Positions 9,047 through 48,375 of a stretch of 64,000 nt of DNA are shown one piece after another. Every line of letters begins with the position of its first letter. Position 1 is the first letter of the stretch. Below the pieces are notes generated by a model, which worked only from the letters and a program-made list of their open reading frames with translations, had not been told where the DNA came from and made no database searches. The position numbers and the translations under genes were made by a program. Source of the stretch: an uncultured Thermoprotei archaeon (GTDB taxonomy: Archaea > Thermoproteota > Thermoprotei > Thermofilales > B15-G2); assembly GCA_965367815.1 (NCBI GenBank), contig CBDUKN010000001.1:128001-192000 (forward strand), written 5' to 3'.

Positions 9047-11413
9047 TCACATTATATATTTTCCGTTGTAGAGATTTAGTATAGGCTTGTTTTCATTATT
9101 ACAGGCTACTGGAATCCATACTATGCATAGTTTTTCTACAATAATTTCTTTTTTCTTGGGCTTAATTCTATACTCTTTGATTTGAGATAGCTTTAGTTCA
9201 TATTCTTTTTTAAGTTTCTTTATTCTGGTTTCTAGTTCAGAGTCAAGTATTCTGCGCTCTGTTTCAAGTTTGCTTAATTTTGCTTTAGATAGTGCTATTT
9301 TTCTTTCTAGCTGCTGTATAGTTTTCTTAAAATCTCGTTTACTGGACTTCTTTCTTTTCTTTCCTGCTAAAAAGTAGACTGTAGAGATAAAGGTGTCTAC
9401 TGCTTTTTCTCGCTTAACTGCGCTGAGTTCTTTTTCTAAACGCTTTAGTACTTCTTGCTCATAAACTATTTTACTTTCAATGCTTCTTAACTGCTTTAAA
9501 TATTTTTCTTTAATATCAGCTATTTTTAATTCTATTTCTTTCCACAAAATACTCTCTATTCTTTTTCTGAACGACTTTAAGTCTTCATTGACTTCGGATA
9601 CATATTTTCCTCCTAGAGCTGTGTGAACTACGAGGGTGTTATTTTCAACTATATGGTTTTTTACTAATTGTTGTAGAGACTTTATGAATGTTTTCTTAAA
9701 GAATTTAGGCGGAAGGTTTGCAAAAGAGAATTGAAGGTCTTTACTTGTTTTTAAGTCTTCTTTCTTTAATTCACTTAAAGTGAGTCCATAGGCTTCTCCT
9801 CTTTCCAGTACTGGGTTTTCATTTGCTTCGCAGAGATATCTTATTGTTTTAGAGTAGTCTAATGGAGGTCTCTTTCTAACTACTTCTATTTTAGCCTCAA
9901 TGTAGAGAGCAGGATAGTATACTGGCTTAAAGTCTCCGGCCGGAAATTTGGGTGGTAGATAGTAGACTTCAAGGTCTTCAGGAAAAGTATGTACGAGAGT
10001 CGTTTTAATGGGCTTCAGGGAAAGTTTTCTTGTTTCGAGTACGGGTTTCGATTTCAGCTTAGATATTTCGTTAAGTGTCAGCGGGCCTCTTAAGTACGAT
10101 ATAGCCTGCCTCGTCTTAAATAAGATACTTCTGTTCTTCCTGGCGTCGTAAAGGAGAAAAATGCGTCTACCGAGCAGTGATATTATTTTCGAGAGTTCTT
10201 TTTCATTGAAGCCTCCGCTGGAAGCTAGTCTGAGTCCTTCTAGTACTCTTCTTTTATCGTTTTCTGTTTGAAGCTTACCAATAATCCATAGACCTGCGTT
10301 AGTTAAAGCCTTATAGTCTAAGTCTACGGGATTCTGCGTGGCAAGAATTATGCCTAGACCGAATGCTCTAGCCTGCTTAAGTAGCATTAGGAGCGGGGTT
10401 TTAGAAGGAGGATTACGGGGGTACGGCGGCAGATATCCGTAGACTTCATCGAAGTAAAGAAGATATTTTAGCTTAGAGGAGCCTGGCCGCGTAAACATCC
10501 AAGAATATAAGGCTTCAAGAATCAGTGTCACGGCAAACATTCTTTCAGAGAGCCCGAGGTGCGCTAAATAGAAGACGACTGCTCTTGGTTTTCCTTCGGG
10601 ACTCCAGAATAGTTTATTGAAGTCTAGAGGAATTCCAGTAAACCATGTTCTGAAGCCGGGTGAAGCTATGACTCTGTTTAAGTCTCTTGCAAGCTTTTTG
10701 CGCTCATTTCTAGACATGAAAGCGTCTACTTCGAGGGCACCAATTCTGTCTAGAGGAGGGTCTATAATGTACGAAAGAAGCTTTGAGTAATTGAGTGGCT
10801 CATTCTTTCTCCAGCAGTGTTCAATAATGCTAGATATCAATACATGTTCATAGCTCTTAAGAGGATCGCTAGGGCGTCCAGCTAGTTCGAGGAGAGCTGA
10901 AACAGTTACCTTAATTTTATTCAAAAGTACTTCCTCGTGTTCGCTCCAACTCAAGTTTTCGGGTGGTGTTAGCTCAGATAAAAGTGATAAAGGAATACCC
11001 GCGGTGCTGCCGGGAGTTACTACTATTACTTCGCTTTCTTCGAAAAGCTTCTTTCTCCTGTCAGTTAAACCATATTTTCTTAAAGACTTGCTGTATTCTT
11101 CGAAGACTTTACAGGCATATTCTTCGGGAGACATCCCTAAGCGAGCGGCTTCTTCTACTTCAATCCACTTCAAGAAGTCCTCTGGGCTATTGAGCCTTAG
11201 GGCAATATTGACTGCGTCTCCTTTTGAGTCAATTACTGCTACTGGTATTCCTTGAATTAAAGCTTCTTCGAGAAGAATAGTAGCTAAGCCTGTTTTACCT
11301 GAGCCAGTCATGCCTACAATAATACAGTGTGTTGTCAACGTATCAGGGTCTAAGCTAAATTTTTCTTCAGTCTCTCTGAAGCTAGGGTATTCTACGGCGT
11401 GGCCTAAGTACAT
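9047..11413 (-). CDS. HerA/FtsK/VirB4-superfamily ATPase (DUF87/DUF853-like) with C-terminal coiled coil
   Basis: Walker A GMTGSGKT, Walker B LLYFDEVY, ARAFGLG, ATQNP; K/E-rich coiled coil in the last ~170 aa. Confidence 0.85.
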   Translation of the reverse strand: MYLGHAVEYPSFRETEEKFSLDPDTLTTHCIIVGMTGSGKTGLATILLEEALIQGIPVAVIDSKGDAVNIALRLNSPEDFLKWIEVEEAARLGMSPEEYACKVFEEYSKSLRKYGLTDRRKKLFEESEVIVVTPGSTAGIPLSLLSELTPPENLSWSEHEEVLLNKIKVTVSALLELAGRPSDPLKSYEHVLISSIIEHCWRKNEPLNYSKLLSYIIDPPLDRIGALEVDAFMSRNERKKLARDLNRVIASPGFRTWFTGIPLDFNKLFWSPEGKPRAVVFYLAHLGLSERMFAVTLILEALYSWMFTRPGSSKLKYLLYFDEVYGYLPPYPRNPPSKTPLLMLLKQARAFGLGIILATQNPVDLDYKALTNAGLWIIGKLQTENDKRRVLEGLRLASSGGFNEKELSKIISLLGRRIFLLYDARKNRSILFKTRQAISYLRGPLTLNEISKLKSKPVLETRKLSLKPIKTTLVHTFPEDLEVYYLPPKFPAGDFKPVYYPALYIEAKIEVVRKRPPLDYSKTIRYLCEANENPVLERGEAYGLTLSELKKEDLKTSKDLQFSFANLPPKFFKKTFIKSLQQLVKNHIVENNTLVVHTALGGKYVSEVNEDLKSFRKRIESILWKEIELKIADIKEKYLKQLRSIESKIVYEQEVLKRLEKELSAVKREKAVDTFISTVYFLAGKKRKKSSKRDFKKTIQQLERKIALSKAKLSKLETERRILDSELETRIKKLKKEYELKLSQIKEYRIKPKKKEIIVEKLCIVWIPVACNNENKPILNLYNGKYIM

Positions 11414-44098: not shown

Positions 44099-44143
44099 AT
44101 AAAACTTAAGTAAAAAGTAAATTTATAAAAATGAACTTATTTT

Positions 44144-45115
44144 TTAGTAAGTCTTTCCTGTGAGAGAAGCTATTGTCGGCGAGTTTACTCCAGTTGCTAT
44201 AAACATTATCTTTGGGTACTGTAACCCTTTCTCTAGTCTTAGGCCCCAGAATGTTCTCTCAATCTTATACTTACTTGTTATTATTTGGTTGGCGGCAGAT
44301 GCCTCTTCTAGAGTAGTTTTCTCAGGAGCTACTACATATATTAGAGCTGACTCAGCGTCACTGAGGTCTGCGTCAAGTAGCTTGTTTTTTATGGCATTGT
44401 TTGCCGCTTCAGATACTTTGAGTCCTACACCGTGTCCCACCATTCCTAGTCCAGAGTCTCTGCATGCCGAAATAATGTCTGCGTAGCTGATGCTAATTAA
44501 GCTTGGTTTTGTAACTAAGTCAATAATGGACTTAAGAGTACTTACAAGTATTGAGTCCATAAACTTGAAAGCGAAGTTTACTGGAATTCCTCCTATCTTA
44601 TTTAGTAGTATATCGTTTAAGTTTGTTATTGTTAAGTCTGCTACGTCAAGTATTTTAGTTAACCCGTATCTAGCGTTGTCGAGACGATTCACTCCTTCGA
44701 ATGTGAAGGGTAGTGTTACTAGTGCTATTCTTAGTGCGTCTGGGAATCTGTTTCTTAGTTCTTCTAGTAGTACTGGTATTCCTCCGCTTGCTGTACCACC
44801 ACCAAGACCACCAGTAACAATGACTACATTAGGAACTCCGATTGAGTTAATTATGCGGCTTACATCGTCTCTCATTGCTGCTTCTCCTAGACTTGGGTTT
44901 CCTCCTGTTCCATGTCCTCTTGTTATTGTTTGCCCAATTAATATTTTATTGGGTACTTTAACTGACTGTAAGTGAACAGCCTCAGTATGAACAGCAACAG
45001 CTAAAACATCTTCAGTAGCACCAACCTCATACAACCTATTCAAAGTATTACAACCACAACCACCAACACCGACAACAACTATGTTTATTCTCTCCCCCAT
45101 TGTTTCACCCCTCAA
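44144..45115 (-). CDS. ftsZ: Divergent FtsZ/tubulin-family GTPase, paralog 3
   Basis: GVGGCGCN, GHGTGGNP, GGLGGGTASGG, PFTFEG; T7 loop SLISISYAD. Confidence 0.88.
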   Translation of the reverse strand: MRGETMGERINIVVVGVGGCGCNTLNRLYEVGATEDVLAVAVHTEAVHLQSVKVPNKILIGQTITRGHGTGGNPSLGEAAMRDDVSRIINSIGVPNVVIVTGGLGGGTASGGIPVLLEELRNRFPDALRIALVTLPFTFEGVNRLDNARYGLTKILDVADLTITNLNDILLNKIGGIPVNFAFKFMDSILVSTLKSIIDLVTKPSLISISYADIISACRDSGLGMVGHGVGLKVSEAANNAIKNKLLDADLSDAESALIYVVAPEKTTLEEASAANQIITSKYKIERTFWGLRLEKGLQYPKIMFIATGVNSPTIASLTGKTY

Positions 45116-46034
45116 TGAATTTTGTTACCATATCAGATTTAACATTTGTTGCTATAAACCCTACTTTCGGAGACTGTACTGCCCAAGTTGGCTTGAATCC
45201 GAAATACGCGTTTACCACATTGTATTTGCTTGTTATTGTTCCTTGGATATCGAAGATATCTGATGTGCTTAAAGCAGTCTCAGTGCTTTCTACAACTACT
45301 ATTGCTCCTCTTGCATCTTTAAAGTTTAGTTCACAGTAAGGGCTCTCACAGGCCTTGATAAAGGCTTCTCTTACATTAAGTCCTTCGCCTAGCCCTATAA
45401 AGCCTAGACCTGACTTAACTGCTATTGACTTGAATACATTGAAGTCTACGTTCATTAGTCCAGGTATAGGTGTAATTTGATCCAGTGCTTTCAGTACGTA
45501 GATAGCATTTGCTATCAGTTTGTCTAAAGTACGGTATGCTCTAGGTAGAGCCATAGTTGGGTGCTTTTCTTTGAGTTTATCGTTAAAGTGTACTATAGTC
45601 ATATCCGATGATTCTATTATTTGAGGTAGAGCAGTTTTAGCATTGTTTATTCTTGGAAGAGCTTCTGTTCTGAAAGGTATAGTTACAAAAGATACTACTA
45701 GCGTATCTAACTGACTCTTAATGTTTTCTACTAGAACAGAGTGTCCTCCGCTACCTGTTCCTCCACCTAAGCCAGAGATTACAACTACTAGCTCAGAGCC
45801 TTCAATTCTCTCAACAATTTTTGGAACTAAGTTTTCGACAGCTTTTCTGCCAAGCTCCATTGAGCCCGCAGTAGATCTTCCTTCACCTACCTGCAGGACA
45901 TACTTAGCTTTAGCCGTTTTAAGAGCTAGGGAATCGGTATCTACAGCTATTGTTGTCAGGTCTTTTATATCTAGTGCAATATTGTTAAGGGCGTTTAGTC
46001 CTCTACCGCCTATACCTATTACTGATATCTTCAT
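45105..46034 (-). CDS. ftsZ: Divergent FtsZ/tubulin-family GTPase, paralog 2
   Basis: GIGGRGLN, SGLGGGTGSGG, PFRTEA; T7 loop GLMNVDFNV. Confidence 0.88.
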   Translation of the reverse strand: MKISVIGIGGRGLNALNNIALDIKDLTTIAVDTDSLALKTAKAKYVLQVGEGRSTAGSMELGRKAVENLVPKIVERIEGSELVVVISGLGGGTGSGGHSVLVENIKSQLDTLVVSFVTIPFRTEALPRINNAKTALPQIIESSDMTIVHFNDKLKEKHPTMALPRAYRTLDKLIANAIYVLKALDQITPIPGLMNVDFNVFKSIAVKSGLGFIGLGEGLNVREAFIKACESPYCELNFKDARGAIVVVESTETALSTSDIFDIQGTITSKYNVVNAYFGFKPTWAVQSPKVGFIATNVKSDMVTKFIEG

Positions 46035-46035
46035 A

Positions 46036-47043
46036 CTATCTCGCCTCCAGGAATTGTTCTACTAAGGGGGATTTAACACTTGCCACTAATAACATTACTT
46101 GCGGATTGTGCACCCTCCAATTATACCTGACGCCCCAATACACAGTGCCTATACCGTATTTTTCACTGAGTATTCTTGGGACTTCCTCAATTTCTCTAAG
46201 GGAAAGCATGCTTCTAGTGCCTTCAGCGTAAACTACAGCTCCCCTAGCACCACTTAAGTCTGCTTCACAGTAGTTTTTAGCTAGAGCTTCTTCAAATGCG
46301 TCAATAAAGCGCAGGCCAGAGCCTATGCCAACAAAGCCGAGTCCACTTTCTCTCGTTAATCTCTCGATGTTAGAGAAGTCTATATTAACTAAACCTGGCT
46401 CAGGTTTGAGTCCCTGCAGCTTAGTTAATCCATTAATTAAATCTACTAGGTGTTTATCCATTTCTCTAAATGCCTGTTGAATGCTATATGCGCCTACTTT
46501 TTCCTTAAGAATATCATTAAAGTTAACTAAAGTCATATCAGCTAAATCGAGTAACTCAGATAGAGCCATTTGAGCATTCTGGATACGTTCAATACCTTCT
46601 GAGGAGAAGGGTATTGTTACTACTGCCCAGACAAGTCTATTCTTCATGTTTTCTTTTATGTATTCTGCTAGTGCTAGTATTCCTCCTGTTCCTGTACCGC
46701 CGCCGAGACCAGCAGTAAGAATATACAGCTCAGCATCCTTGACTGGGGCAAGGACTTTGTCTACTTCGCGGCTCATTATCTCTCTACCAAGAGCAGGACT
46801 ACCAGCACTACCACGACCACGAGTAACAGTCTCACCAATCAATACACGGTACTTAGCTCTAGTCACACTTAAGGCTGCTGCGTCAGTATTTACAGCAACT
46901 GTAGGTACTTGTATTCCAGCATTAGTTAAGTTAGTTATGGTGTTACATCCACATCCTCCTATACCGATTATGGCCATTTTTAAAATCGCTCTCCTTGCTA
47001 ATGTTTCGGCAAGTGTTCTGTCTTCAATAAATCTCCTCGACAC
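46036..47043 (-). CDS. ftsZ: Divergent FtsZ/tubulin-family GTPase, paralog 1
   Basis: GIGGCGCN, VNTD, AGLGGGTGTGG, PFSSEG; T7 loop GLVNIDFSN. Confidence 0.9.
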   Translation of the reverse strand: MSRRFIEDRTLAETLARRAILKMAIIGIGGCGCNTITNLTNAGIQVPTVAVNTDAAALSVTRAKYRVLIGETVTRGRGSAGSPALGREIMSREVDKVLAPVKDAELYILTAGLGGGTGTGGILALAEYIKENMKNRLVWAVVTIPFSSEGIERIQNAQMALSELLDLADMTLVNFNDILKEKVGAYSIQQAFREMDKHLVDLINGLTKLQGLKPEPGLVNIDFSNIERLTRESGLGFVGIGSGLRFIDAFEEALAKNYCEADLSGARGAVVYAEGTRSMLSLREIEEVPRILSEKYGIGTVYWGVRYNWRVHNPQVMLLVASVKSPLVEQFLEAR

Positions 47044-47127
47044 GTATATTACCTTGAAATAACTTTAAAAACTTTGCCGTTAATCTTATGTGCACTTGGA
47101 ATCTCTTAAAAATAGCCGAAGTATGTT

Positions 47128-48375
47128 TTATAGTCTTGAAATAACTTCGAAATTTTCTTCGGGAGTATTACTGAATGAAAAGAAATATAGTCCCTTGGGA
47201 TTGATCTTGAGAGCTTCTTTAATCGCGTCGAGTAGTCTCCTCGGAGGATTATACACTATGCTTGGATCATATCCTGAGTAAAGACCTACATATATTCTGG
47301 AGGGGTCGATGTATTCTGCCACCTTTAGAGCTTCTCTTGAAGCTATTTCAGGTGGAAGACCATAGTACTCGAAGTCTTTAACGCTACTAGGCTTATTTAC
47401 TCCAAGCAAATGCGATATTGTCTCAAGTAGTAGATCTTCGTACTCCCATCCTACTCGGTCTAGTATTGACTTAATGTACTTTGTCTCCCAGGCACCCATT
47501 CTAGCAGTATATATCATAGGCTTAACTGTATCCAAGACTTCTCTGAGGAGAGAGTAGTCTTGTCCCACCTGCCAGGAGAGAGTAGGATAGAAGAGGTCTG
47601 CACTCAAAGCGACGCCGCTTTTTTCGACACTTTCCTTAATGAAAGCTATGAGTTCTTTTACGCTTTCTGCTCTGAAGCGAAGCCAGTCTGCTACTTCAGG
47701 ATGCTCTAAGTAAAATCTGTTTAAGTCTCCAGTGCTGCCGAGGAACATTTTTAGATACTTTAAGTTTTCGTGGCTAGTTTCAGATATTGTTTTAAACATT
47801 TCGATAATTTTTTCGAAAGATTTCCAATCTAATCCTTTTTCTACTGCTTTTTCTCTGCAGAAACTACAGTAGCAGTGACGCCCTATTAGCAGGTGTGTTG
47901 GCAGAAGAAATCCTTCGCGGCTACGCTTAAACCTAATGTAGTCTAACTCAACTTCATCTACCTCATATTCGTAGGCAATATTTTCGGCTAGTCCTCTGAG
48001 GTACTTTTGGACATCAGGATTGTTTGGGCACAAGGCTCTGGGGTGCGGGCTTCCTCTAAAGTCTATTAATCTGCATTCAGGGTTCTTTTCTGCATGAAGA
48101 GGGTCTACTACACAGACCACAGTGGCAGTAAGCTTTAATCCATATTCTCTTGAAGCCTCGACACACTCCGCTAAAAGATCTCTTTTACAGCCTTTTACGG
48201 GCTTAAGTTTAGTTTCGGTAAAATATTTGTCTTTAGGCTTGAAAAACACTTTACCTTCAGCTACTACGAATATAGATGCTCTCGAAACATTGTATTTAGC
48301 TAGTTTCTCGAAGACCTTATCGGCGGTTTTCTCGTAAATATCTCTCCAGCTTACCCAGAACCCTACTTCAACCAC
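47128..48375 (-). CDS. Putative glycoside hydrolase, GHL10/DUF187-like TIM barrel
   Basis: LCPNNPDVQKY, YEVDEVELDYIRF, CYCSFC, PMIY. Confidence 0.7.
   Translation of the reverse strand: MVEVGFWVSWRDIYEKTADKVFEKLAKYNVSRASIFVVAEGKVFFKPKDKYFTETKLKPVKGCKRDLLAECVEASREYGLKLTATVVCVVDPLHAEKNPECRLIDFRGSPHPRALCPNNPDVQKYLRGLAENIAYEYEVDEVELDYIRFKRSREGFLLPTHLLIGRHCYCSFCREKAVEKGLDWKSFEKIIEMFKTISETSHENLKYLKMFLGSTGDLNRFYLEHPEVADWLRFRAESVKELIAFIKESVEKSGVALSADLFYPTLSWQVGQDYSLLREVLDTVKPMIYTARMGAWETKYIKSILDRVGWEYEDLLLETISHLLGVNKPSSVKDFEYYGLPPEIASREALKVAEYIDPSRIYVGLYSGYDPSIVYNPPRRLLDAIKEALKINPKGLYFFSFSNTPEENFEVISRL

What the first reader, a model, noticed from the sequence alone, without database searches (positions are those of the whole stretch)
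44144..47043. Operon of three divergent FtsZ/tubulin-family GTPases: candidate heteropolymeric cytoskeleton
Seen: three co-oriented genes (335, 309, 323 aa), separated by 1 nt and overlapping by 11 nt, each with the T1 (GxGGxGxN), T4 (GGGTG/AxG) and PFxxE motifs. They share private features (SGLGF/MxGxG, I-x-x-KY-x-I/V, terminal V-x-S motif), which points to local duplication followed by strong divergence. No sepF or ribosomal/secE context is nearby. Known: canonical FtsZ is a homopolymer, and cultured Thermoprotei generally lack it; heteropolymers are a tubulin/BtubAB trait. Inference: tight coupling suggests stoichiometric co-assembly into a shape or division filament. As recalled, an ftsZ paralog cluster was reported in Korarchaeum, so novelty needs checking.
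Basis: partly seen in the sequence, partly recalled or inferred. Interest (0 to 1): 0.88.

Follow-up and report, generated by a model that had tools for sequence, protein, structure and literature searches.

The report
Duplicated part of a multi-FtsZ operon
Three intact, tail-less FtsZ-like genes are a genus-level copy of the last three FtsZ genes of a larger conserved multi-FtsZ operon in an archaeon that lacks ordinary FtsZ and SepF, and the pattern of lost catalytic residues suggests that the paralogues must assemble together.

Summary
In detail: three co-oriented minus-strand genes (W1 46036-47043, W2 45105-46034, W3 44144-45100/45115) all encode FtsZ-fold proteins.

They did not arise by local triplication. 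The genome has eight FtsZ-family genes. The other five sit in one operon on contig C25, in the order Q1-Q2-s97-Q3-PRC barrel-Q4-Q5-s95. W1, W2 and W3 are copies of Q3, Q4 and Q5 (74, 58 and 81% aa). They carry 214-nt and 362-nt tracts identical to the originals, and a congener shows the same pattern with its own tract sequence, which points to concerted evolution.

A four- or five-FtsZ operon with the same gene order and the small s97 gene occurs in 7 genomes of 5 families and 3 classes. All these proteins form one clade (100/100) outside the canonical FtsZ groups. They have no C-terminal tail. Only the Q1 type keeps both T7 aspartates, and none of the window's three does. No SepF, MIT domain or CdvA was found.

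Best reading: interdependent subunits of a heteromeric division filament, with the triplet acting as isoforms. This is unproven. A five-ftsZ plus PRC-barrel cluster in Korarchaeum is already in print.

The parts
46036..47043 (-). W1, 335 aa. FtsZ-like, B type (Q3 orthogroup). T7 loop NIDFSN: the second Asp is replaced by Asn. No C-terminal tail.
   Evidence: ORF. PF00091 112.5 bits. 172 bits to M. jannaschii FtsZ. 74% aa identity to Q3 on C25. Sister to the G001 orthologue at 99/99, then to the Q3 pair at 97/96. T7 loop and tail.
45105..46034 (-). W2, 309 aa. FtsZ-like, B type (Q4 orthogroup), the most divergent of the three. T7 loop NVDFNV: the second Asp is replaced by Val. Short deletion in the T2/T3 region. 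No tail.
   Evidence: 94 bits; 117 bits. AlphaFold2 model and Foldseek. 58% identity to Q4. Orthogroup supported 99/99. Motifs.
44144..45100 (-). W3, 318 aa from the ATG at 45100 (323 aa if the TTG at 45115 is used). FtsZ-like, A type (Q5 orthogroup). T7 loop SISYAD: the Asn and the first Asp are lost, the last Asp is kept. One residue follows the aligned globular end.
   Evidence: 120.9 bits; FtsZ_C 39.9 bits; 194 bits. Start codon. 81% identity to Q5. Tree. Motifs.
47064..47071 (-). TATA-like TTTTTAAA, 28 to 21 nt upstream of the W1 GTG. Putative promoter of a leaderless or short-leader transcript (inferred).
   Evidence: Read directly from the sequence. No transcript data are available.
46044..46048 (-). 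GGAGG inside the 3' end of W1, 9 nt before the W2 ATG. Shine-Dalgarno-like, suggesting translational coupling.
   Evidence: Sequence.
45108..45113 (-). GAGGGG at the end of W2, 7 nt before the W3 ATG at 45100. Shine-Dalgarno-like.
   Evidence: Sequence.
44718..45079 (.). 362-nt tract identical to C25 14586-14947 (W3 versus Q5; gene nt 37-398, from the T1 to the T4 region). Gene-conversion tract.
   Evidence: In four public runs the contigs break at its borders, depth rises within it, and loose ends carry the Q5 flanks. The congener has its own shared tract at the same place.
46645..46858 (.). 214-nt tract identical to C25 16799-17012 (W1 versus Q3). Gene-conversion tract.
   Evidence: Flanking gene sequence is about 55-75% nt identical. 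In the congener the W1 and Q3 copies share exact runs of 34, 88 and 39 nt in the same region.
44112..44131 (-). Two T5 runs within 35 nt after the W3 stop codon. Terminator-like (inferred).
   Evidence: Sequence.

Best explanation
The window holds an intact three-gene transcription unit (W1-W2-W3) for tail-less FtsZ-fold GTP-binding proteins. It is a copy of the Q3, Q4 and Q5 genes of a larger operon on contig C25 of the same genome, whose order is Q1-Q2-s97-Q3-PRC barrel-Q4-Q5-s95. The copy was made in the common ancestor of this genus.

That operon type, with at least four FtsZ paralogues in fixed order plus the small s97 gene, is old. It is scattered over at least three classes of Thermoproteota, and its proteins form their own clade within the FtsZ family.

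Each orthogroup keeps a complete GTP-binding face but has a characteristic, conserved defect in the T7 'synergy' loop. This loop normally reaches into the next subunit's nucleotide pocket.
- Q1 type: keeps both Asp.
- Q5/W3 type: keeps only the last Asp.
- Q2, Q3/W1 and Q4/W2 types: keep Asn and the first Asp but have lost the last one. As I recall it, beta-tubulin does the same relative to alpha-tubulin.

I therefore read the paralogues as interdependent subunits of one heteromeric FtsZ-type filament. Some longitudinal interfaces would be hydrolysis-competent and others not. The filament would be built without the usual C-terminal-tail/SepF anchor, and would serve cell division in an organism that has no canonical FtsZ, no SepF and no recognisable CdvA or Vps4.

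The window's triplet would supply alternative isoforms of three of the subunits. Recurrent gene conversion keeps their nucleotide-binding halves identical to the originals.

Shown here: the genes, the fold, the duplication history, the conversion tracts, purifying selection, operon conservation and the motif pattern. Inferred: co-assembly, the consequence for GTPase activity, the division role and the isoform role.
For: Family and fold.

Eight paralogues in two clusters.

The triplet is a copy of Q3-Q5. Identities are 74, 58 and 81%, against 29-42% for all other pairs. In the careful tree, W1 with its G001 orthologue is sister to the Q3 pair (97/96), and W2 with its G001 orthologue is sister to the Q4 pair (100/99). 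G003, from another family of the same order, has one quintet and no triplet.

Gene conversion. There are exact tracts of 362 and 214 nt in genes that are otherwise about 55-75% nt identical. The tract occurs in both contexts in contigs of 4 public runs from 4 studies. G001 has its own shared tracts, which are only 78-91% identical to those of G000.

Selection. dN/dS between G000 and G001 is 0.019 for W1 and 0.036 for W2, against 0.019-0.048 for Q1-Q4. dS is saturated, so the ratios are rough.

Operon conservation. The order Q1-Q2-s97-third FtsZ-Q5 is found in G057, G287, G465 and G495, and in the five-FtsZ form in G000, G001 and G003. That is 7 genomes, 5 family codes and 3 classes.

Separate clade. 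The split has 100/100 support and a stem of 0.83. The A type is supported 98/96 and the B type 100/99.

T7 pattern.
- Canonical rows: 10 of 10 have D-x-x-D.
- Q1: 7 of 7 rows plus 2 of 2 keep both Asp. Two of the seven rows are the same G003 protein.
- Q5/W3: 10 of 10 plus 2 of 2 keep only the last Asp.
- Q3/W1: 5 of 5 plus 2 of 2 lack the last Asp.
- Q4/W2: 6 of 6 lack the last Asp.
- Q2: 5 of 6 plus 2 of 2 lack the last Asp.

Role of the two Asp. Mutation of D209 or D212 of E. coli FtsZ severely impairs GTPase, and the T7 loop activates the neighbouring subunit (passage of bioRxiv 10.1101/677963).

Tails. 0-6 residues follow the globular domain in the clade, against 10-53 in the 10 canonical rows.

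Link to division. A PRC-barrel gene (PF05239, 37.2 bits, cut-off 21.2) lies inside the C25 operon. PRC-barrel proteins act in FtsZ-based archaeal division (passages).

No other known division machinery was found. No SepF, no MIT domain, CdvA at most 15.4 bits and Snf7 15.8 bits, both below their cut-offs, in a 99.4%-complete genome. The same searches rang in control genomes.
Against: There is no direct evidence of binding, polymerisation, GTPase activity, expression or localisation.

The Q2 orthologue of G287 keeps the last Asp (SIDFSD), so the A/B rule has one exception in 8 Q2 rows.

FtsZ1 and FtsZ2 of Haloferax are co-required paralogues, but this does not show that they co-polymerise. Paralogy in an operon therefore does not by itself imply a mixed filament.

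The triplet lacks copies of s97, the PRC-barrel gene and s95, all of which are single-copy. It also appears to have its own promoter-like element. It could therefore act separately from the main operon.

Negative Pfam searches cannot exclude highly diverged ESCRT-III or CdvA. Passages of PMC11188069 say that diverged Cdv components were later recognised in Thermoproteales. The genome also holds an actin-family gene.

Which flank is linked to which across the identical tracts rests on the assembly. Public contigs do not bridge the tracts. One short public contig encodes a chimera of the W3 N-terminus and the Q5 C-terminus (P0006).
Confidence: 0.5

Rival explanations
1. Separate homopolymers. 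Each paralogue forms its own filament with its own job (ring assembly, constriction, cell shape), as in FtsZ1/FtsZ2/CetZ of haloarchaea. The operon only co-regulates them.
For: Multiple FtsZ-family paralogues with distinct roles are known in archaea (passages of PMC8178401 and PMC9723716). All eight proteins keep intact T1 and T4 GTP-binding motifs, apart from T1 GDCG in Q1 of this genus.
Against: In a homopolymer every interface would use that protein's own defective T7 loop. Seven of the eight proteins lack one of the two Asp whose mutation cripples the GTPase of E. coli FtsZ. The fixed gene order, with overlapping or nearly abutting pairs Q1-Q2 and third FtsZ-Q5, is kept across three classes. 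That fits stoichiometric partners better than independent filaments.
Confidence: 0.22
2. Autonomous triplet. W1, W2 and W3 alone form a stoichiometric heteropolymer that is a second, independent cytoskeletal system, for example for shape.
For: The unit is tightly packed: a 1-nt gap and a 4-nt gap, with internal Shine-Dalgarno-like motifs. It has its own TATA-like element and T-runs. It lies on a different contig from the main operon. It is conserved in the congener and under purifying selection.
Against: None of the three proteins has a complete T7 loop, and no Q1-type gene (both Asp) is in the unit. The recurrent gene conversion keeps the nucleotide-binding halves of W1 and W3 identical to Q3 and Q5. 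That is what is expected if they must fit the same partners. The triplet exists only in one genus, whereas the full operon is widespread.
Confidence: 0.15
3. Artefact or decay. The triplet is a mis-assembly of strain variants of the C25 operon, or a duplicate on its way to loss.
For: The genome is a 37-contig assembly. The identical tracts are not bridged by public contigs. A chimeric short contig exists (P0006).
Against: The W and Q copies differ by 19-42% at the protein level outside the tracts, far beyond strain variation. The triplet sits in a 242-kb contig with its own flanking genes, which are syntenic in G001. Both copies are present in four independent runs. All ORFs are intact, with dN/dS of 0.02-0.04.
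Confidence: 0.03

Closest known systems
Seven-gene cluster of Candidatus Korarchaeum cryptofilum with five ftsZ paralogues and a PRC-barrel gene. Source: Elkins et al. 2008, known to me only through a Discussion passage of bioRxiv 10.1101/2023.03.28.534543. The original paper is not held.
   Same: The C25 operon of this genome has the same make-up: five ftsZ paralogues, a PRC-barrel gene and one further small gene (s97) between Q1 and Q5, which makes seven genes. Neither cluster has a known function.
   Different: Two classes scanned held no five-gene cluster. The window's own feature is a three-gene partial copy without the PRC-barrel gene. I found nothing in print on the T7 asymmetry, s97, the duplication or the gene conversion.
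Canonical archaeal FtsZ1 and FtsZ2 with SepF
   Same: Same two-domain fold and the same GTP-binding motifs. M. jannaschii FtsZ1 is the best PDB match for all three proteins.
   Different: Scores are 117-194 bits to M. jannaschii FtsZ1, against 410 and 330 bits for the two canonical copies of one euryarchaeon. All three are below the TIGR00065 cut-off. They form a separate clade. They have no C-terminal linker or tail, the T7 loop is incomplete, and there is no SepF in the genome.
Alpha/beta-tubulin and bacterial BtubA/B heterodimers
   Same: The logic only. Paralogous subunits are encoded side by side, and one class has lost the acidic T7/H8 residue that activates hydrolysis in the neighbour. 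That beta-tubulin has Lys where alpha-tubulin has the catalytic Glu is recalled, not tested here.
   Different: Sequence similarity is marginal, 22-31 bits to tubulins and BtubB. There are four to five paralogue types rather than two. Heterodimer formation is not shown.
'Divergent FtsZs' of Crenarchaeota (Santana-Molina et al. 2023, PMC9871819) and the 'new deeply branching FtsZ-like clade' of Culexarchaeia and unclassified Thermoproteia (Kohtz et al. 2022, PMC9723716). I saw passages only.
   Same: Both papers report TACK FtsZ-like sequences that branch outside FtsZ1, FtsZ2 and CetZ and have no known role.
   Different: The passages mention single homologues on trees and no operon. Whether those sequences belong to this clade is shown only in supplementary figures, which I could not open.
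CetZ (haloarchaeal cell-shape tubulin-like proteins)
   Same: An extra FtsZ-family paralogue in archaea, not always used for division.
   Different: The solved CetZ chains 4B46, 4B45 and 3ZID score only 26-59 bits, against 117-194 bits for FtsZ.

Membership tests
FtsZ/tubulin superfamily (Pfam PF00091) | GTPase domain with T1 GGxGxN and T4 GGGTGxG motifs, scoring above the Pfam cut-off | tested here: met
   112.5, 94.0 and 120.9 bits against a cut-off of 33. Motifs listed.
FtsZ proper (two-domain FtsZ fold) | FtsZ-type C-terminal domain following helix H7 | tested here: met
   W3: FtsZ_C 39.9 bits (cut-off 27). W1: 22.9 bits, below the cut-off. W2: no Pfam hit, but its AlphaFold2 model aligns over 302-321 columns to FtsZ structures with TM 0.81-0.86.
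Canonical cell-division FtsZ (NCBIfam TIGR00065 equivalog) | Score at or above the curated cut-off of 295.2 bits | tested here: not met
   188.6, 148.1 and 227.4 bits.
Canonical cell-division FtsZ | Complete T7 loop N-x-D-x-x-D | tested here: not met
   W1 NIDFSN, W2 NVDFNV, W3 SISYAD. All 10 canonical rows have D-F-A-D. Alignments to M. jannaschii FtsZ.
Canonical cell-division FtsZ | Flexible C-terminal linker plus conserved tail that binds the membrane anchor (SepF or FtsA) | tested here: not met
   0-1 residues after the globular end in W1-W3 and 0-6 in the whole clade, against 10-53 in the 10 canonical rows. No SepF in the genome.
Archaeal FtsZ1 or FtsZ2 clade | Nested within one of the two canonical archaeal clades | tested here: not met
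   The clade of 36 rows is split off at 100/100 with a stem of 0.83. Its position among the archaeal groups is unresolved, at 53-65% support. The FtsZ1/FtsZ2 labels were assigned only tentatively, from scores to M. jannaschii FtsZ1.
CetZ | Closer to CetZ than to FtsZ | tested here: not met
   26-59 bits to 4B46, 4B45 and 3ZID, against 117-194 bits to FtsZ.
Tubulin / BtubAB / Asgard tubulins | Tubulin-type sequence | tested here: not met
   At most 31 bits to tubulins, BtubB or AtubA/B.
TubZ/RepX plasmid-partition GTPases | TubZ-like sequence together with a TubR/centromere partner | tested here: not met
   Only W1 hits RepX 4EI7, at 33 bits. Tubulin_2 scores 17.6 bits, below its cut-off. The neighbours are chromosomal housekeeping genes. 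TubR itself was not searched for.
Korarchaeum-type multi-ftsZ cluster | Five ftsZ paralogues and a PRC-barrel gene in one cluster of seven genes | tested here: inconclusive
   The parent operon on C25 has this make-up. The window's triplet has only three ftsZ genes and no PRC-barrel gene. Sequence orthology to the Korarchaeum genes could not be tested.
Multi-FtsZ operon clade defined here (Q1-Q2-s97-Q3-Q5) | Membership of the Q3, Q4 and Q5 orthogroups by phylogeny | tested here: met
   In the careful tree, W1 lies in a 4-row set with the Q3 genes (97/96), W2 in the 6-row Q4 group (99/99), and W3 with Q5 (100/99).

The most novel reading that the evidence does not exclude
These operons encode an archaeal FtsZ-derived counterpart of the alpha/beta-tubulin principle. 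The filament would be an obligate heteromer in which one paralogue class (Q1, and partly Q5/W3) supplies catalytic T7 residues. The other class (Q2, Q3/W1, Q4/W2) would form hydrolysis-dead, structural interfaces. The filament would be anchored by a new small protein (s97) and a PRC-barrel protein instead of SepF. This machine would divide members of Thermoproteota lineages thought to be FtsZ-free. The window's triplet would be a set of 'isotypes' kept compatible by ongoing gene conversion.
Probability: 0.3. Interest if true: 0.85.

Novelty: new variant of a known kind. Interest (0 to 1): 0.62.

Why it matters
Division in Thermoprotei relatives that lack both FtsZ and clear Cdv proteins is an old open question. 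Here a member of such a class carries eight FtsZ-fold genes and none of the usual partners.

The conserved, complementary loss of T7 residues between paralogue classes is a sequence-level prediction of obligate hetero-assembly. It can be tested with a few recombinant proteins. If it holds, it would be a second, independent origin of the catalytic/non-catalytic subunit logic of tubulin, this time within FtsZ itself.

The triplet adds a clean natural example of concerted evolution, by gene conversion restricted to the nucleotide-binding half, between cytoskeletal isoforms.

If the proteins instead act alone, the finding reduces to one more case of archaeal FtsZ paralogy of the kind already noted for Korarchaeum.

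Tried and rejected
Complex prediction. W2 and W3 were sent as alignments A2 and A3. The verdict was 'no answer', with scores of 0.00 and 0.00. This is not evidence either way.

Expression. No RNA holder was listed among the 23 runs returned, so nothing can be said about transcription.

s97. There was no Pfam family, no usable Atlas hit and no Foldseek PDB match at E <= 0.001. The AlphaFold2 model shows a disordered basic N-terminus and a four-helix domain at pLDDT 83.6. A role as anchor or adaptor is a guess.

Close relatives through genome contigs. I used them as outgroups only.

- The phylum sample (401 genomes) and three further class scans gave new four-FtsZ operons in G465 and G495.
- No five-gene cluster outside this order was found.
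- Three genomes of genus g49 have only 1-3 hits.
- The last homologue search, with P0131, gave no informative names.

Tandem-fused proteins P0126-P0128 (744-840 aa) at first looked like covalent fusions of clade members. Their sequences are canonical FtsZ repeats with linkers, so I dropped them as evidence.

Origin of the clade. The quick 115-row tree put it beside a presumed FtsZ2 group (SH-aLRT 88). The careful 83-row tree did not reproduce this (53-65%), so the origin stays open. For the careful tree I removed 32 of the 115 rows: long branches, partial genes and near-duplicates.

Rejected readings. CetZ, tubulin, TubZ, a mobile-element origin, and contamination. On contamination, the GC content of the region, 0.38-0.41, is like the rest of the window.

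Papers not held: Liao et al. 2021 and Elkins et al. 2008.

Supplements are closed. Supplementary Fig. 4 of PMC9871819, Supplementary Fig. 3 of PMC9723716 and Supplementary Data 1 of PMC8178401 may already show sequences of this clade.

Full report
**1. Observation**

One search lists three minus-strand ORFs at the stated coordinates:
- W1, 46036-47043, 335 aa, GTG start.
- W2, 45105-46034, 309 aa.
- W3, 44144-45115, 323 aa, TTG start.

The 1-nt gap between W1 and W2 is real. The 11-nt overlap between W2 and W3 depends on the TTG start. An ATG at 45100 is preceded by GAGGGG. It aligns with the start of the paralogue Q5 and gives the 318 aa of the nearest public homologues. A 4-nt spacer is therefore more likely than an overlap.

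All three proteins pass Pfam PF00091 and fall below the ftsZ equivalog cut-off: 188.6, 148.1 and 227.4 bits against 295.2. Their best solved relatives are M. jannaschii FtsZ, at 172, 117 and 194 bits. CetZ chains score 26-59 bits and tubulins at most 31.

An AlphaFold2 model of W2, the weakest of the three, has pLDDT 86.2. It superposes on FtsZ structures over its full length, and all 50 listed Foldseek hits are FtsZ, with TM 0.81-0.86. The feature is real and is not a chance match.

**2.

The assembly is 2.45 Mb in 37 contigs and 99.4% complete. It holds eight PF00091 genes: the three in the window, and five in a row on contig C25. I call these five Q1 to Q5.

Pairwise identities single out three pairs: W1-Q3 at 74%, W2-Q4 at 58% and W3-Q5 at 81%. 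Every other pair is 29-42% identical.

The apparent intergenic gaps of the C25 cluster hold small conserved genes:
- s97, 97 aa, between Q2 and Q3. It matches no family.
- A 79-aa PRC-barrel protein between Q3 and Q4 (PF05239, E 3e-9, 37.2 bits against a cut-off of 21.2).
- s95, after Q5.

None of the three has a second copy in the genome (tblastn). The window's triplet is thus a partial copy of a larger unit.

**3. History**

G001, the only other genome of the genus, has both clusters, with orthologues at 84-94% aa identity. G003, from another family of the order, has one quintet split over two contigs and no triplet.

G057 is in the same class but another family. G287 is in another class. 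G465 and G495 are in a third class. Each has a four-FtsZ operon in the order Q1-Q2-s97-third FtsZ-Q5. In G465 and G495 the third gene is clearly of Q3 type, at 57-58% identity to Q3 and W1.

The operon is rare:
- 4 of 120 species genomes of the window's class have any FtsZ-family gene at E <= 1e-10.
- In a sample of 401 genomes of the phylum, 158 have the family, but only G000 (8 matches), G287 (5) and G057 (4) have more than three.
- In the class of G287, 3 of 26 genomes have the family.
- In the class of G138, 90 of 151 sampled genomes have it, and two of these carry the operon.
- In a further class, 71 of 76 genomes have a single ordinary FtsZ.

A profile search of 1.84 billion representatives found about a dozen 50%-identity clusters of this kind, ahead of a continuum of ordinary FtsZ.

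**4. Phylogeny**

The careful IQ-TREE analysis used 83 rows and 352 columns under LG+C20+F+G4. All 36 operon-type rows form one split with 100/100 support and a stem of 0.83. Inside it there are two halves:
- An A type (Q1 and Q5/W3 groups), supported 98/96.
- A B type (Q2, Q3/W1 and Q4/W2 groups, plus the fast-evolving third genes of G057 and G287), supported 100/99.

W1 with its G001 orthologue is sister to the Q3 pair (97/96). W2 with its G001 orthologue is sister to the Q4 pair (100/99), with G003's Q4 outside (99/99). The block duplication therefore post-dates the split from the G003 family and pre-dates the split of the two congeners.

The attachment point of the clade among archaeal FtsZ groups is unresolved: 88 SH-aLRT next to a presumed FtsZ2 group in the quick 115-row tree, and 53-65% elsewhere in the careful tree. 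The FtsZ1 and FtsZ2 labels are tentative. They rest on two copies from one euryarchaeon that score 410 and 330 bits to M. jannaschii FtsZ1.

**5. Gene conversion**

Two tracts in the window are letter-for-letter identical to C25:
- 44718-45079 (362 nt) equals C25 14586-14947.
- 46645-46858 (214 nt) equals C25 16799-17012.

The rest of each gene pair is about 55-75% nt identical. Both tracts lie in the N-terminal, nucleotide-binding half of the protein.

I laid contigs of four public metagenome runs from four studies on the region. They break at the tract borders and show raised depth within the tracts. They also carry loose ends that equal the Q5 flanks of C25. Both contexts of the repeat therefore exist in nature.

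In G001 the contigs end inside the W3/Q5 tract. Its two copies share 123 and 32 exact nt there, and 34, 88 and 39 exact nt in the W1/Q3 region. Yet those tracts are only 78-91% identical to the tracts of G000. Identity within each species but divergence between species is the signature of ongoing concerted evolution.

One caveat applies. No public contig bridges a tract, and one 1.2-kb public contig encodes a chimera of the W3 N-terminus and the Q5 C-terminus (P0006). The pairing of flanks therefore rests on the assembly and on synteny. The order Q4-Q5-s95 is also seen in G003.

**6. Selection and expression signals**

dN/dS between the congeners is 0.019 for W1 and 0.036 for W2, the same range as for Q1-Q4 (0.019-0.048). 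dS is saturated, so the ratios are rough.

Several sequence features fit one transcription unit with translational coupling, by inference only:
- A TTTTTAAA box lies 28-21 nt before the W1 GTG.
- GGAGG lies before the W2 start and GAGGGG before the W3 start.
- Two T5 runs follow the W3 stop codon.

No RNA run was available.

**7. Features that bear on mechanism**

GTP-binding motifs T1 and T4 are intact in all three window proteins. The clade has no C-terminal linker or tail: 0-6 residues follow the globular domain, against 10-53 in the 10 canonical rows. The usual way of binding SepF or FtsA is therefore missing, and no SepF gene exists in the genome.

The T7 loop differs by orthogroup in a conserved way:

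| Group | T7 motif | Rows |
|---|---|---|
| Canonical FtsZ | N-[LV]-D-F-A-D (one row V-V-D-F-A-D) | 10 of 10 have D-F-A-D |
| Q1 | [RH]-x-D-[FW]-x-D | 7 of 7 plus 2 of 2 |
| Q5/W3 | [SG]-[IV]-[SG]-[YF]-x-D | 10 of 10 plus 2 of 2 |
| Q3/W1 | [NS]-I-D-F-S-N | 5 of 5 plus 2 of 2 |
| Q4/W2 | N-V-D-F-x-[VSM] | 6 of 6 |
| Q2 | N-V-D-F-S-N | 5 of 6 plus 2 of 2 |

The Q2 exception is G287, with S-I-D-F-S-D.

N207, D209 and D212 of E. coli FtsZ are named as highly conserved T7 residues (passage of PMC8456036). [quoted passage not shown]

Only Q1 keeps both Asp. None of the window's three proteins does. From memory, the B-type pattern (Asn and first Asp kept, last acidic residue lost) is the pattern of beta-tubulin relative to alpha-tubulin.

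**8. Reading**

The most economical explanation is that the paralogues are interdependent subunits of one heteromeric FtsZ-type filament with both catalytic and non-catalytic interfaces.

A role in cell division is suggested by three things:
- The PRC-barrel gene inside the parent operon. PRC-barrel proteins act with SepF and FtsZ in Haloferax division (passages).
- The absence of any canonical FtsZ. All eight genes belong to the clade.
- The lack of SepF, of MIT/Vps4 and of CdvA or Snf7 above cut-off.

One actin-family gene is present.

The triplet then supplies alternative Q3, Q4 and Q5 subunits whose nucleotide-binding faces are kept identical to the originals. None of this is demonstrated. 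The single complex-prediction job gave no verdict.

The rival readings are separate homopolymers, an autonomous triplet, and artefact or decay. They are weighed in their own sections.

**9. Comparison with what is known**

A Discussion passage of bioRxiv 10.1101/2023.03.28.534543 cites Elkins et al. 2008. It states that Candidatus Korarchaeum has a seven-gene cluster with a PRC-barrel gene and five ftsZ paralogues. The C25 operon has the same make-up. I could not obtain the Korarchaeum sequences or the original paper, so orthology is untested.

[quoted passage not shown] PMC9723716 describes a new FtsZ-like clade that includes 'unclassified Thermoproteia'.

Full-text searches returned no paper, and the passages I read in the papers opened from their listings hold no description, of:
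- the operon outside Korarchaeum;
- the s97 gene;
- the T7 asymmetry;
- a duplicated sub-operon with gene conversion.

I therefore rate this a new variant of a known kind. The multi-ftsZ cluster as such is known. Its spread, its internal logic and the window's derived triplet are not, as far as these searches show.

**10. Limits**

Taxon statements rest on group codes and on two source labels of clade proteins: 'Thermoprotei archaeon' and 'Candidatus Bathyarchaeota archaeon'.
- Negative Pfam searches do not exclude very diverged Cdv proteins.

Noticed in passing
L009 (G000:C25:8000-26000) 9204-9497, minus strand: s97 is a small gene conserved at the same place (after the Q2-type ftsZ) in all seven operon-bearing genomes. 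It has a basic N-terminus (M-x-LF-x-RKK) and then a confident four-helix domain. It matches no Pfam family, PDB fold or Atlas cluster. It is a candidate adaptor or anchor.
   Followed up: partly
L009 7947-8186, minus strand: A 79-aa PRC-barrel protein (PF05239, 37.2 bits) lies between Q3 and Q4. It sits inside the operon only in G000 and G001. Other PRC-barrel genes lie elsewhere in G000, G001, G003 and G287, and none was found in G057.
   Followed up: partly
L009 5715-6002 and 4062-4838, minus strand: s95 is a helical 95-aa protein just after Q5, also found in G001 and G003. Further downstream lies a 258-aa coiled-coil protein with a C-terminal winged-helix-like end. It gives weak sub-threshold coiled-coil hits, including ZapB.
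   Followed up: no
P0126, P0127, P0128: Public proteins of 744-840 aa consist of two complete canonical FtsZ units joined by low-complexity linkers. They are either natural tandem fusions or gene-calling run-throughs. They are not members of the clade.
   Followed up: no
P0006: A 318-aa public protein from a 1.2-kb contig combines the W3-type N-terminus with the Q5-type C-terminal half. It is either a natural recombinant or an assembly chimera at the identical tract.
   Followed up: no
window 46864-46930: In all four laid runs one contig joins 46864 to 46930, skipping 65 nt (table 5). The site is just upstream of the W1/Q3 identical tract. It is probably a Q3-copy contig laid in two pieces, but I did not resolve it.
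   Followed up: no
window 44140: All four public runs lack one base here relative to the window, in the A-run just after the W3 stop codon (table 4).
   Followed up: no
window 47128-48375, minus strand: A 415-aa DUF4015/glycosyl-hydrolase-like gene sits between the endonuclease III-like gene and W1. In G001 the endonuclease III-like gene directly adjoins W1, so this gene was inserted or lost near the triplet.
   Followed up: no
L027, L037, L040 (Thermoplasmata MAG loci): Two canonical ftsZ genes lie side by side in each locus and form sister groups in the tree. This is a separate case of tandem ftsZ duplication.
   Followed up: no
G171:C27:15801-16043, G171:C41:6724-6963, G129:C2:387375-387617: Weak extra Tubulin-family hits (33-40 bits, open frames of 357-373 aa) occur beside one canonical FtsZ in a genus of another class. 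These are possibly very divergent FtsZ-like paralogues.
   Followed up: no
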